The position numbers were made by a program. From Escherichia coli (GTDB lineage: Bacteria > Pseudomonadota > Gammaproteobacteria > Enterobacterales > Enterobacteriaceae): a stretch of DNA of 64,000 nt. The stretch lies in the NCBI RefSeq assembly GCF_003991155.1, contig NZ_CP031293.1; one strand, given 5' to 3'. Positions 15,001 through 21,000 of the stretch are shown piece after piece. Every line of letters starts with the position of its first letter. The first letter of the stretch is position 1.

Positions 15001-18000
15001 GCTTCCATCTGGATCTTCTGGCCCATCAGCGTATTCACTAACGTGCTCGCCGCCTGTGCCTGTGCCTGTGGATCCAGAACGTTGTTGTTGTCCTGATAAG
15101 AGAGCAATTCCGCTTTGCTGGCGTCCAGACGCTGGCGTGCCTTTTCCATCTCCGTTTCTGCAAAGGCAAGCTGGTCACGCGCGATGCGATGTGACATCTC
15201 ATTGATAAAGCGCTCTGACTCTTTCAGCACGGTCTGGTTAAACTTAAGCGCAAACTCCGGGCTAAAGCCCTGCGTCTGAATATTCAGTAATCCGGTTTTA
15301 TCGTCATACGAGACGTTGATACGGTCCTTGTAGTACTTCAGGAAGCCTTCTGCGGTTTCATCCTTGCTAAGATGATTAAGAAAATCGAGCCCGCTGTGGC
15401 TAAACGCTTCACGAAAATTTAGTTGCTTATCCAGAGCCGCCAGCATATCCGGCGAGTTGATGTACTCTTTCAGATACAACGCATCTTCTGCGGAACTGGG
15501 GTTAGAGGCACCCAGAAGCAGACCAAAATTCAGGCTGCCGCTGTTTAAATCATCCGAGCGTTTAATGGCGACTTTCGACTCGCTCATATAGCGAGGCTGG
15601 CTGAAGATAGCCAGATAGATCAGCAGCACCGCCATCGGTGCCAGAATGATGATTTTCGCCAGGTGTTTTTGGATATCTGCCAGTGAGATGGCAGATAGAC
15701 GAGCACACATCCAGGATACGGCAGACTTCACTTTTATCAACATGTAACGATTATCAAAGTTTCAGTGGGGCGCAAACTCAATGAGAGACTAACCTCTCGC
15801 ACCCCGTTGCTTAATTAGTCGAAAATGCGCACAAGGCCAGTGACTTTATTTGCCTTGTTGGTCACCAATAACGTTGAGACGCGGTGTTTTTGCATTTTTT
15901 CTTCCGCTTCAATGATCATGGTGTCTTCCGGTAGCGTCAGCGGTTCACGTGTCATCATCTGCGCAGCCGTGGCGGATGTCAGAGAATCCTCTTTTTCCAT
16001 AAAGCGACGCAGGTCACCGTCGGTGATAATGCCCGCTAGCCCACCTTCTGCGTCTTCTACCATCACCATTCCCTGGCATCCGCTGGTGATACGTTGAATC
16101 ACGGTTTTAAATGACGCATCCAGCTGTACCGCAGGAACATCATGCAGCATGACATCAGCAACGCGGGTCAGCAGGCGACGACCTAATGAACCGCCCGGGT
16201 GATAGCGCGCAAAATCATTCGGCATAAATTTGCGTTGGTGGATCATGGCAATCGCCAGCGCATCGCCGATCGCCATCGTCAGCGTGGTAGACGTTGTTGG
16301 TGCAAGGTTATTCGGGCAGGTTTCATTCGCCATGTGGAGTTCCAGCACGGCATCAGCATTTTTCGCCAGCGTGGAATTTCCATTATTGGTCATGGCGATA
16401 ATTCGGTTGCCGAAATTTTTCAGTGAAGGAACTAGCTTGAGGATTTCATCCGTTTCACCGCTGGCAGAAATAAGGATCAGAAGATCGTAAGGCGTAATCA
16501 TGCCCAGATCGCCATGGAAAGCTTCTGCAGGATGAATAAAGAAACTAGGCGTACCCGTAGAGGCCAGCGTCGCTGACATTTTACGACCGACATGCCCTGA
16601 TTTACCCATTCCCGAAAGAATAACGTGCCCTTTACAGTTCATTATCAAATTAAGGACACGCTGGTACTGCCCGGAATCCAGTTGTTTAGACAAGTTTTGT
16701 AATGCTGCGCCTTGTTCTGCCAGAGTCTGGCGAACAGAGGTAATTAGATATGGATCGATAGTACTGCTCTGGTCATCAGGTAAATGTCTTTCAGACATAT
16801 CAGCTCCTTTGCACGGAAATAATGCCACAGTCACAACAAACCCGAACCCACTATAATTTATTTATGCTAAATCAATGGGTTGTAACAAAATTTTTAATGA
16901 ATATAAAACCATGGTCAGTCCATGCTTATATGCAGGACTTATCACCTTCTTATTAAGTCGCAATGTCTCATGGAGGTGCGAAGATGCTGCAATATTACAG
17001 GCGAGAAGGGGAACCAAATTTTGCCCACCTATTTAACACACCCCTACATTATGAACAAGGAATTTAGGATTTTTATCATTTATTAAAATGTTTCTCACTT
17101 GACTATTAAGACCAAAAACAATTTATCAATTGATTATTTCCTCGTAAAAAAAGAACGTATGACCATGTTATTAATAAATAAAACACGTAAATAATGGTGA
17201 TGTTGTTTTGTGATTAACTATTTAAAGCGGCATAATAAACAGGTTGACAATTTCTATGTAAAGAAGAGGAAAATAATAAAATTTTAGCGGTGACTATTGA
17301 ATGATATGATAGTTGTGATGTTGATTATTTCTGGTAATGAATGCGGAATTAAATCTGGCCGGATTGTATTTTTGCTATATCTGTTTTTCAGGAGATTATT
17401 ATTAAATAGAAAAATAACAGTGGTGATTATCTCCGGTTGAGCTGGAGTCACGTATGCCAGCGAGTGCTTTCTTCCGGGCCTTCCTTCACTTCAGATAAAG
17501 AGCCTATGGAAAAGAGGCAATCATCAGGCTCTTTTTGAGTCATATGCGCCGATAATCAACTGTCTTGAACGTAAAAATTATGGAGCAACATGATGCTACG
17601 ATTCATTTCACTCTTCGTTCTTTCTGAGCATTGCGTTCAGGATGGTCAGCAATTTACGCATACAGTCAACCAGCGCCACTTTTTTGGTTTTTCCGGCTGC
17701 TGACAGATGCATGTAAAATGCCTTTATCACCGGATTAAACCAGGTTACCACAAGCGCTGCCATGTGCAGGGCTGCTCTTGCCTCCGTACGCGCACTGGCG
17801 TCGTTCGGCCAGCAGATATGTGTGGGATTACAGGGATGTTATGTGAACTGAACTGTGTTTTGTTAACGGGGGATGTTTATTGATGATTCGGGAGTGTTTA
17901 AGACCTGATGGCGTTATGCTCCCAAGTTTATTTTATATAAAGATCCAAAAGCAAAAACCCGCCTTGTGGGCGGGTTCTTTAGAATAGTGGTGCCGGACTC

Positions 18001-21000
18001 GGAATCGAAGAATGCTTCTATCATGTTGATATTAGTTTATTTTGTTTGGTTTGGTGAAATATGTACCCTCTTTTGTACCCGCAGTCCCTTTTGATATCGA
18101 AAGGGAATCAAACTCGGGGTCAGGCTGAGAGCACAGAAGGAAAGTGCCTGGCTATTATATCGTTAATTCTGTCAATCAGCTCCAGCCTTTTGAAAGTGAT
18201 GTGTGCAGATCCCTTCTTAAAGTATTTAATGATGAACATCTCATCTTCATAGCGTCCTTTACCCTGAACGGACTGTATGTGGTCATCCAGATTAATGGTG
18301 ATATTCCCTCGGTTGTCGGGGATCGGTTTACCGCTGAGCAGATGCAACATTCTTTCCAGGTCAGCCAGGCGATCTGCCTGCATTCCACTGATAAGATGAA
18401 ATCCCCACTGGTCCCATCTCACCAGATTGTTGACGATAATTTTACTGCCAAATTTACAGGGTGAGTTGGTTTTGTAATCCCAGCTCAGCCCTTTGAAGAC
18501 GTTGATCACTCCCCGTTCAAACACTTCATCTTTGTTCTGGTGCAGTTGTTCAAATGTGCTCAGAATGTTCGCTTCGCTGATTTCCGGAAAATTATCATAT
18601 TCCAGTGACCTGGACCTGACTGAGGTGGAGCAGATAACGTCCGTATTCTCGTTGACCACTTCCGGACGGGAGACTGTGATTTCAGACATAATCGATATTC
18701 CTTTTTGCAGATAAATGAAAACGCCAGCCGTGTTCAGGCTGGCGTCAGTGGAATGAAGTCTGGTGAGTGAGATGATGAGTGAGACTCACCGGTTCTGGTG
18801 CTGAAGCTGCAGTTGGCGCAGGGTACGGATATCCTCTCTGGCCTGTTCGATACAGGGCAACAGTGCTGCTGAATCCGTTTTATCCTCATTGTTGTCAAAG
18901 ATAATTCCCGATTCGCAGTCGATATTGTCCTGCAGCCACGCAATCAGAATATCCAGTGCGGTTTCCGTGGTTAATGATTTCATGTTGTTCCTGGTTACCA
19001 GTTGAAAGTGGGTAAACCCGGCAGGCATTCAGCGCTGGCATCCAGATGAATGAGACTGACGCCATAACGTCGGGTAAGTGTGATAACCAGACGACGGAAC
19101 GTTTTTGACAGCCCCAGGCGTTTAAGCCGCAGAACCGGATATGACCACGCATCGGTACGTAACAGATATCCGCTACCTGTGAAATGAATCCATTCTGATT
19201 CACCAACGTCACTGGTCTGATGCGACAGCGAGTACAGCCAGGCGTTATCCTTTTCCGTGATATGTGCGGTACTGCAGCGTATGCCGGCAAGGGTTGCAAA
19301 CGGTGGTAGTGTGCAGGTTGACTGTTGGTCGGATTCCTCCACCACGCGGAGTGAATAACCGTTTTCAGCGACCTTGTTAATCAGTTCAGTGAGATTAACA
19401 CCATCGACGTCAACGACAATTTGCCCCATGTTCAGTGCCTGCACATTAATTCTGTCGGCTTCCAGCATCAGGGAAAGTTTCATCGTTTCTCCGGATGCTT
19501 ACCCAGGGTAATGTTATTTACCGTTCTGTAATTGTCGCGGGTCATCAGGCCGGTCGCCCGGCGAGCCCGGAGGATATCAATACTGTTTATTAACTGAGAG
19601 CGGGGACAAGTGCTGAATCCCGGCTGGTCGGTACGCACCAGCGCGTATTTTTCCACGAGAAAATTCACCGCATCACACAGTGAAATGCCAGCTTCAATAT
19701 GCTGCTCAATCACACGTTCATCGGCGAACGGTGTGTCATTCAGTGTAAGGCCGTAATGCTGGCCCAGTAGTCGGGAGAGCAGAGTCTGCCAGATGGTGAC
19801 GGGAGACGGGCAGCTCGATGCCTCCCGTACGTGTGTATCGGGTAATGTTTTCATACTGAAGGTTTTCCTGATATGCAGAGATGAAAAATGGAAAAGTGGC
19901 GTGGTGAAAGCACCAGGCCGGAGCAGAAGGTTATTCCGGTGGTTTACTTTTTCGTTTCGGGCGTCGGATAAACAGCCAGATAAACGTAACCACCGCTACC
20001 GAGAGTGTCAGCTTTGCAGGTCAGACCTTTTGCATACAGCGTGACGGTATGCTGATGGCGGGGATTCAGTTCACCGCTGGTGAGCATGAGTTCCAGTTGT
20101 TTCATCAGCAGCGGAAAGGCCTGGTCCAGGTGGTACGCATCTGCATCGCTGAACAGGCCTCTGATACCGGCGCGGTCGGCAAGGTAATGCAGGCTGTTAC
20201 CCTCCTGCACCAGACGGGCGCCGAAACAGGGCGTCACGGTGCAGGGCAGCCCCCACCAGGGGCGGTCGTGATTGTCGTCGGGAAGCATTGTCCCGGAGAG
20301 TGCGTCTGACACGATAAAATCCTCACAGAAAATCGGTTAAGAATGGTTTAACGATGACAGGTCAGCCGGCGCGCAGACCGCCTTCGGTAAAGGTGTATTC
20401 GTTTATGAGCAGGGCCTCATCCACAGCGGCGTCTGAGCTCAGCCAGTCGTACTCGTTTTCCGGGTGACGGAACATCAGTTCAGGGTGACGCTCATCAGCC
20501 GGACATACGGGCCAAAACTGTCCTTACGACGTTCAGCAAACACGGCCAGCACACCGGGAATATCCTGCACTTCACGACCGGTATACGCTTCAGTGCTGCC
20601 GTGCCAGCGGTATTTGCCGGTACAGAACGGGAAAAGACGGGATGTCGGATGTTGTTGGTGAATACGCATGGCTTCACCACGAGTGATAATTTTCATAATG
20701 GGATACCTCTGAAGACAGAAGATAAAAGTGAAAACAGGTGTGATGTGGTTGTGACGGGTTAAAGCAGACCATGTTCGGCAAAGGAGAAAACCTGGTTGCC
20801 ACCGACTATCAGATGGTCCGGCACCCGGATATCCACCAGGCCCAGTGCCTGTACCAGACGTTCGGTGATAAGCCGGTCTGCCTTACTGGGTGTGACTTCA
20901 CCGGACGGGTGATTGTGCGCCAGCACCACGGCAGCGGCATTGTGGTACAGGGCGCGTTTAATCACTTCCCGGGGATGGACTTCCGTGCGGTTGATGGTGC

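What the first reader, a model, noticed from the sequence alone, without database searches (positions are those of the whole stretch)
17608..18009. Island boundary: tRNA-Phe 3' fragment with its terminator, next to an IS110-family remnant
A 22-nt copy of the tRNA-Phe 3' end (one G deleted) lies on the minus strand immediately beside a terminator hairpin of the kind that follows a tRNA gene. No tRNA body is present, so this is the distal direct repeat of an element integrated at a pheV-type site. About 180 nt to the left is the C-terminal tail of an IS110-family transposase, indicating a past IS insertion between the kps promoter and the att site.
Basis: partly seen in the sequence, partly recalled or inferred. 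Interest (0 to 1): 0.55.

Follow-up and report, generated by a model that had tools for sequence, protein, structure and literature searches.

The report
Right end of the pheV island
This is the well-known far boundary (attR) of a large pathogenicity island inserted into the E. coli tRNA-Phe gene pheV, lying next to the capsule (kps) genes and an old IS110 fragment; it is real but ordinary and already published.

Summary
Window 17988-18009 (- strand) is TTCGATTCCGAGTCCGGCACCA, the last 23 nt of tRNA-Phe minus one G. Eight nt further on lies the native pheV terminator (17953-17979). No tRNA body is present. The window is 99.72% identical to E. coli Combat2C1. In that genome the intact pheV and a P4-type integrase lie about 31 kb beyond the window's right end, and the two repeats enclose a 77-kb island (pap, pgt, cdiBA, nan, Ag43, yee/CbtA, DUF4942). 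Strain O18 has the same kps flank with an intact pheV and no island, which is the empty site.

The missing G is not local decay. The identical 22-mer joined to the pheV flank occurs in 1,413 complete E. coli genomes. It is listed as the "23-bp imperfect" attR of GI-pheV in PLoS Genet 2024 (PMC11537424).

The IS110 piece (17557-17790) is also real. It keeps the 3' end of the IS and lacks the 5' part. It belongs to the kps flank rather than to the island: it is present in about 1,550 genomes, including ones with an empty pheV site.

The parts
324..1825 (+). Core chromosome shared with K-12 (gspL-yghD). K-12 homology stops at the yghD stop codon.
   Evidence: blastn of K-12-like locus L002 against the window: L002 1398-2899 matches window 324-1825 at 95%; annotation.
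1826..17940 (.). 16,115-nt kps (group 2 capsule) block that replaces 101 nt of the K-12 pheV-yghD spacer: kpsMT, region 2, kpsSCUDEF, the region 1 upstream DNA and the IS110 remnant. It has no tRNA-Phe repeat at its far end.
   Evidence: low and mosaic GC (0.31-0.40 at 2-10 kb).
15815..16798 (-). kpsF, first gene of kps region 1 (PGAP start; the mechanical ORF runs to 16834).
17557..17790 (-). IS110-family remnant: the last ~60 codons of the transposase plus the 3' end of the IS. The 5' part of the IS is missing. The reading frame ends ...LRKNEE, with stop codons where the full-length relative continues WNESYHHVAP.
   Evidence: PGAP pseudogene at 17608-17790. Only distantly related to IS621 (E 1.8e-29); no match to ISSfl8.
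17791..17940 (.). Spacer of unknown origin, specific to the kps flank. Single copy, and always found at this locus.
   Evidence: Found in 1,631 of 5,426 complete genomes, median 1 place per genome, always beside the IS110 remnant. No similarity elsewhere in the window or in the IS copies.
17941..17987 (-). Native 3' flank of pheV (47 nt), shared with K-12. It contains the pheV terminator at 17953-17979.
17988..18009 (-). attR core (pheV'): 22-nt copy of the 23-nt 3' end of tRNA-Phe, with GG in place of GGG.
   Evidence: PMC11537424 Table 1.
18010..64000 (.). Right-hand 46 kb of the ~77-kb GI-pheV island: DUF4942, the yee module with CbtA/YeeU, Ag43, PTS and sugar genes, cdiBA, nanXY. The island continues past the window.
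18120..18689 (-). DUF4942 gene, the last gene of the island. It is transcribed towards attR, the terminator and kps.
   Evidence: The same gene ends islands at pheV and pheU in other genomes.

Best explanation
Window 17988-18009 is attR, the far junction of a ~77-kb genomic (pathogenicity) island of the GI-pheV / PAI V type. A circular form of the island carried an attP core, TTCGATTCCGAGTCC-GGCACCA. This core recombined with the 3' end of the chromosomal tRNA-Phe gene pheV, catalysed by the island's P4-type tyrosine integrase. The integrase-proximal junction (attL, about 31 kb beyond the window's right end) keeps a complete, functional pheV, now followed by an island-borne terminator. The far junction keeps the island's own 22-nt copy, joined to the original pheV terminator and flank. 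That is why a tRNA tail sits beside a tRNA-type terminator with no tRNA body. The kps capsule block and its IS110 remnant lie outside the island, on the chromosomal side of attR, and are a separate, older acquisition. Shown here: the sequence identities, the positions of both junctions in a near-identical genome, the empty site, and the population counts. Inferred: the recombination mechanism. Also inferred: strand exchange takes place within the last ~7 nt (GGCACCA), because attL always keeps the chromosomal GGG and attR the island's GG. Excision between the two repeats is reported in the literature and was not tested here.
For: The 22-mer equals the pheV 3' end minus one G, and the adjoining 47 nt equal the native pheV flank and terminator. 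The window is 99.72% identical over all 64,000 nt to Combat2C1, with no differences in 17-19 kb. In that genome, intact pheV (identical to the K-12 and O18 genes) sits at 2078998-2079073, followed by a 421-aa integrase (NF007246, E 2.6e-75). The repeats lie at 2079051-2079073 (GGG) and 2156047-2156068 (GG), with 76,973 bp between them. Empty site: strain O18 has kpsF, the IS110 remnant, the terminator, intact pheV and yqgA with no island. The same junction (pheV flank + 22-mer + DUF4942/yee end) covers at least 80% of the query in 1,438 of 5,426 complete genomes. The exact GG 30-mer is present in 396 + 1,017 genomes. Islands whose ends are only 87-93% identical, and islands at pheU, carry the same GG repeat. 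Literature: PMC11537424 Table 1 lists exactly TTCGATTCCGAGTCCGG-CACCA as attR in APEC O1, S88, 536, ED1a, H10407, 55989 and REL606. PMC10272209 describes the PAI downstream of kpsF, the 22-bp repeats, the P4-like intB and inferred excisions. PMC7387560 describes a 22-bp pheV' beside yeeUV and kps.
Against: The intact tRNA and the integrase are not in the window. Their position is taken from a near-identical but not identical genome. Nothing here shows that this copy is still mobile, and the repeats are imperfect (22 versus 23 nt). The crossover position is inferred from the polarity of the heterology and has not been mapped. Many of the 1,413 genomes share the junction by descent, so they are not independent integration events.
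Confidence: 0.95

Rival explanations
1. The kps cluster and the island form one composite mobile unit (the older 'PAI-pheV includes kps' view). Under this reading the 22-mer is an internal scar and the true boundary lies beyond kpsM.
For: kps is also horizontally acquired, shown by its mosaic low GC and its absence from K-12. PMC12488582 states that the yee toxin-antitoxin genes and the capsule genes were co-acquired on the 123-kb CFT073 PAI.
Against: The att repeat lies between the yee module and kps. There is no second tRNA-Phe repeat anywhere in the window, including the kpsM/yghD end. kps with its IS110 remnant occurs with an intact, island-free pheV in O18. The same island end and repeat occur on the K-12-type flank without kps (L008, L010, L011; about 1,017 genomes carry that flank allele). 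[quoted passage not shown]
Confidence: 0.04
2. The fragment is what remains of a tRNA-Phe gene whose body was deleted in place (a decayed tRNA pseudogene). It is not an integration repeat.
For: Only the 3' tail and the terminator remain, and one base is missing.
Against: The DNA immediately 5' of the 22-mer is the conserved end of the island. It is found joined to the same 22-mer at pheV and at pheU in other genomes. An intact pheV exists 77 kb away in the near-identical genome. The identity starts exactly at the 23-nt att core.
Confidence: 0.01
3. The IS110 element brought in or rearranged the island or the kps block, so the remnant is functionally linked to the boundary.
For: The remnant lies at the pheV-proximal edge of the kps-specific block, 150 nt from where K-12 homology resumes. 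PMC12488582 speculates that this transposase (c3684 in CFT073) was involved in recombination of the capsule genes.
Against: Only about 230 nt of the IS survive, without the catalytic domain or the 5' non-coding end. The remnant is outside the att repeats and is present whether or not the island is there. IS110-family elements are not known to move flanking DNA (general knowledge). No other copy or matching end exists in the window.
Confidence: 0.1

Closest known systems
GI-pheV / PAI V (E. coli 536, APEC O1, S88 type), as described in PMC11537424 and PMC10272209
   Same: Same insertion site (pheV). The attR sequence, TTCGATTCCGAGTCCGG-CACCA, is the same letter for letter. It has a P4-type integrase next to the intact tRNA, the same modules (pap, pgt, nan, flu/Ag43, yee) and the same position next to kpsF.
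   Different: Nothing of kind. Only the particular cargo combination (papG-III, cdiBA, PTS and sugar genes) and the size (~77 kb) are specific to this lineage.
GI-pheV of the intP4.1 type (CFT073, Nissle 1917, ST131 EC958)
   Same: Same site, same integrase family and the same nan/flu/yee modules.
   Different: Those islands have a different attR, TTTCATTCCGATTCCGGGCACCA (a '19-bp imperfect repeat'). It differs by substitutions rather than by the missing G.
Satellite phage P4 and CP4-type prophage integration into tRNA gene 3' ends (general knowledge)
   Same: A tyrosine integrase recombines an attP core that is identical to the 3' end of a tRNA gene. This regenerates the tRNA at attL and leaves a partial copy at attR.
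   Different: This element is a large mosaic island with no phage morphogenesis genes in the part seen. Its mobility was not tested here.
IS110-family insertion sequences (NCBIfam NF033542; IS621 as the structurally solved member)
   Same: The remnant's reading frame and DNA match the C-terminal end and the 3' terminus of a full-length IS110-family element from E. coli.
   Different: It is only a ~230-nt dead fragment. Its full-length relative is only distantly related to IS621 (phmmer E 1.8e-29 over residues 29-319) and the remnant has no nucleotide match to ISSfl8.

Membership tests
tRNA-integrated genomic island with a P4-type integrase (GI-pheV) | Partial direct repeat of the tRNA 3' end at the distal boundary | tested here: met
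   The 22-mer at 17988-18009 (-) equals the 23-nt pheV 3' end minus one G. It is identical to the published attR.
tRNA-integrated genomic island with a P4-type integrase (GI-pheV) | Intact tRNA gene at the other boundary, followed by a tyrosine integrase gene | tested here: met
   Not in the window. In the 99.72%-identical Combat2C1 genome, pheV lies at 2078998-2079073 and a 421-aa integrase at 2079271-2080536 (NF007246, E 2.6e-75).
tRNA-integrated genomic island with a P4-type integrase (GI-pheV) | Presence/absence polymorphism with a clean empty site in related strains | tested here: met
   O18 has the identical kps flank and terminator with intact pheV and no island. K-12 likewise has an intact pheV.
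tRNA-integrated genomic island with a P4-type integrase (GI-pheV) | Excision or circularisation by recombination between attL and attR | not testable with these tools
   Only literature reports are available (PMC10272209). The repeats here are imperfect.
IS110 family insertion sequence | Homology to the IS110 transposase and to an IS terminus | tested here: met
   The fragment matches NF033542 positions 289-342/343 (E 1.9e-7). It is 86.9% identical in nucleotides over 221 nt to the 3' end of a full-length copy, with homology ending at that copy's insertion boundary.
IS110 family insertion sequence | Complete element: DEDD catalytic domain and 5' non-coding end | tested here: not met
   Homology stops at about 17777-17790, so about 260 codons and the 5' end are missing. 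There are stop codons in the tail. It is a remnant, not an element.
Intrinsic (Rho-independent) terminator | GC-rich hairpin followed by a U-tract, downstream of a gene on the same strand | tested here: met
   11-bp stem, 5-nt loop and T-rich tail on the - strand. Folding gives -23.4 kcal/mol, z = -3.1. It is identical to the hairpin after intact pheV. Actual termination was not tested.

The most novel reading that the evidence does not exclude
The one-base-shorter repeat is a built-in marker of where the integrase cuts. attL always keeps the chromosomal GGG, and every attR variant carries its heterologies on the 5' side: GG here, and substitutions in the CFT073, E2348/69 and SMS-3-5 types. 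Strand exchange would therefore be confined to the last ~7 nt (GGCACCA) of the tRNA. In addition, the displaced native pheV terminator now stands between the island's last gene (DUF4942, same strand) and the kps region 1 promoter. It may shield capsule expression from read-through out of the island.
Probability: 0.4. Interest if true: 0.2.

Novelty: already known. Interest (0 to 1): 0.1.

Why it matters
It matters little as a discovery. The pheV island, its imperfect repeat and its position beside kps are all published. It is useful as annotation, because it fixes the exact border between three layers of DNA: the core chromosome, the 16.1-kb kps block with its IS110 scar, and the ~77-kb island. 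It also shows that the capsule genes and the island's yee toxin-antitoxin module are separate acquisitions, contrary to what one recent paper assumes.

Tried and rejected
An Rfam scan of 16800-18800 at a permissive threshold gave only sub-threshold hits driven by the terminator (P9, Trp leader and others). None reached a gathering score and no tRNA model matched. A search for further copies of the 22- or 23-mer in the window, allowing up to 3 mismatches, found none, so there are no internal or kps-side repeats. The 156-nt spacer at 17785-17940 was searched at low stringency in all complete E. coli genomes and against the IS copies and the rest of the window. It occurs only at this locus, so its origin stays unknown. 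I tested whether the remnant is IS621 or ISSfl8, and it is neither. A pheU origin was rejected because the flank is the pheV flank; pheU junctions carry a different downstream sequence next to cadC. The promoter scan found no more sites than the shuffles, so I assign no kps promoter from it. Schneider et al. 2004 (PMC517556) is not held in the library.
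Full report
What is there. On the - strand, window 17988-18009 reads TTCGATTCCGAGTCCGGCACCA. Aligned with intact pheV genes from strain O18 (L001) and a K-12-like strain (L002), this is the last 23 nt of tRNA-Phe with one G of the GGG run missing. Identity starts exactly at TTCGATT, and the bases 5' of it do not align to the tRNA body. The 22-mer occurs once in the window. Dinucleotide-preserving shuffles give 0.00 expected matches even with three mismatches allowed. ARAGORN finds no tRNA in the whole window. Eight nt after the CCA end, at 17979-17953 (-), there is an 11-bp hairpin with a T-rich tail. 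It folds at -23.4 kcal/mol, z = -3.1. This hairpin and the 47 nt from 17987 down to 17941 are the native 3' flank of pheV. They are identical in O18 and shared with K-12 apart from two small differences just after the CCA end.

Where the tRNA went. The window is 99.72% identical over all 64,000 nt to E. coli Combat2C1 (NZ_CP019243.1, 2110056-2174055, reverse strand). The 177 differences cluster in gsp, Ag43 and cdiA, and none falls in 17-19 kb. In that genome an intact tRNA-Phe lies at 2078998-2079073, directly after yqgA. Its sequence is identical to the K-12 and O18 pheV genes. It is followed by a 421-aa tyrosine integrase (NF007246, E 2.6e-75). The two repeats are at 2079051-2079073 (GGG) and 2156047-2156068 (GG), with 76,973 bp between them. 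So the intact gene and the integrase lie about 31 kb beyond the window's right end. Window 18010-64000 is the right-hand 46 kb of the island: DUF4942, the yee module with CbtA/YeeU, Ag43, PTS and sugar genes, cdiBA and nanXY. The part outside the window carries pap (papG-III), pgtABCP and cdi remnants. At attL the tRNA is followed by an island-borne terminator (AAACGGACCTCCACGGAGGTCCGTTTTT). The native terminator has been left 77 kb away beside the repeat, which explains the odd sight of a tRNA-type terminator without a tRNA.

The empty site. Strain O18 has kpsD-kpsE-kpsF, the IS110 remnant, the terminator, intact pheV and yqgA, with no island. It is 99.7% identical to the window up to position 18009. 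K-12-like genomes have yghD, 148 nt of spacer, then pheV and yqgA.

Three layers of DNA. K-12 homology runs through gspL-yghD to window 1825 and resumes at 17941. The 101 nt of K-12 spacer are replaced by 16,115 nt that hold kpsMT, region 2, kpsSCUDEF and the IS110 remnant. This block has no tRNA-Phe repeat at either end. The island is a third, separate layer inserted into pheV itself.

The 'deleted G' is the rule. Six other junctions were fetched: four at pheV with island ends 87-98% identical to this one, and two at pheU next to cadC. All six carry exactly the same GG 22-mer. The exact 30-mer made of the 22-mer plus the native pheV flank is present in 396 genomes with the flank allele seen beside kps. 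It is present in 1,017 genomes with the K-12-type flank allele. In the fetched loci each allele goes with its flank type: window, O18 and L009 for the first; K-12, L008, L010 and L011 for the second. Together that makes 1,413 genomes. The junction as a whole is found in 1,438 of 5,426 complete genomes. PMC11537424 (PLoS Genet 2024) lists TTCGATTCCGAGTCCGG-CACCA as the attR of GI-pheV in APEC O1, S88, 536, ED1a, H10407, 55989, REL606 and others, calling it a 23-bp imperfect repeat. PMC10272209 describes the PAI downstream of kpsF, the truncated pheV, the 22-bp repeats, the P4-like intB and at least 14 inferred excisions in CC95. PMC7387560 mentions a 22-bp pheV' beside yeeUV and the kps cluster.

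How it works. This part is inference from established knowledge of P4-type tyrosine integrases. A circular island with an attP core resembling the tRNA 3' end recombines with pheV. attL regenerates the tRNA, and attR receives the island's left half-core joined to the chromosomal flank. attL keeps the chromosomal GGG and attR the island's GG. All other published attR variants also differ from the tRNA only on their 5' side. The exchange must therefore occur 3' of the G run, within GGCACCA, which has the length of a typical 7-bp overlap region. This is my inference. The papers read here do not discuss it, and it has not been tested.

The IS110 remnant. Window 17557-17777 is 86.9% identical over 221 nt to the 3' end of a full-length, pseudogenised IS110-family element in NZ_CM151356.1. 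There the homology ends at the element's boundary with a neighbouring gene. The 51-aa ORF at 17608-17763 matches the last 54 positions of NF033542. The frame carries stop codons where the full-length copy continues WNESYHHVAP. So the 3' terminus of the IS survives, facing kpsF, and the 5' part, which would face pheV, has been deleted. The full-length relative is only distantly related to IS621, and the remnant does not match ISSfl8. The remnant and the 156-nt spacer beside it are single-copy. They are present in about 1,550-1,630 complete genomes, always at this locus, with or without the island. The remnant therefore belongs to the kps flank. It corresponds to the 'transposase c3684 upstream of region 1' mentioned for CFT073 in PMC12488582.

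Rivals. Decay of a tRNA gene in place is excluded by the conserved island end 5' of the repeat and by the intact pheV 77 kb away. A single composite kps-plus-island unit is contradicted in three ways: the position of attR, kps occurring with an empty pheV (O18), and islands on the K-12-type flank without kps. A causal role for the IS cannot be tested and is unlikely for a 230-nt dead fragment.

Verdict. The feature is a textbook, already published island boundary. Its interest is low, and its value is precise annotation of the borders.

Noticed in passing
L004:17075-17130 (Combat2C1 attL, outside the window); L012 and L013 around 1950-2000: The terminator that the island supplies to pheV at attL (AAATTCATATAAACGGACCTCCACGGAGGTCCGTTTTTCG) is almost identical to the 'native' sequence downstream of pheU next to cadC. 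That pheU sequence is itself followed by an integrase remnant. So the pheU flank looks like the left end of an older, decayed island of the same family, and newer islands sit in tandem with it.
   Followed up: partly
L012:2133-4059: In strain 1-62 an intact IS110-family element (ISSfl8 type) has inserted into the DUF4942 gene at the island's end at pheU. In L007 another IS110-family element sits between the two zinc-ribbon genes of the same island family. IS110-type elements hit these island modules repeatedly.
   Followed up: no
window 49003-60654: There is an intact cdiB (49003-50775) and a 3,288-aa cdiA (50788-60654) contact-dependent inhibition locus inside the island. Differences from Combat2C1 cluster here (49-58 kb) and in Ag43 (26-27 kb), which suggests recombination or diversifying change in these surface genes.
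   Followed up: partly
window 4345-5364: The galE-like gene in kps region 2 is an intact 339-aa ORF in the window, but it is annotated as frameshifted in the otherwise near-identical Combat2C1 genome.
   Followed up: no
window 23554-26077: Two overlapping ORFs on the - strand (440 and 435 aa) correspond to a gene annotated as frameshifted in Combat2C1, next to Ag43. It is probably a disrupted large island gene.
   Followed up: no
window 17980-17987 versus L002: The 11 nt between the tRNA end and the terminator come in two alleles: CTATTCTAAAG beside kps and CTAATTCTTAAG on the K-12-type flank. In all eight loci examined the allele tracked the presence or absence of the kps block.
   Followed up: partly
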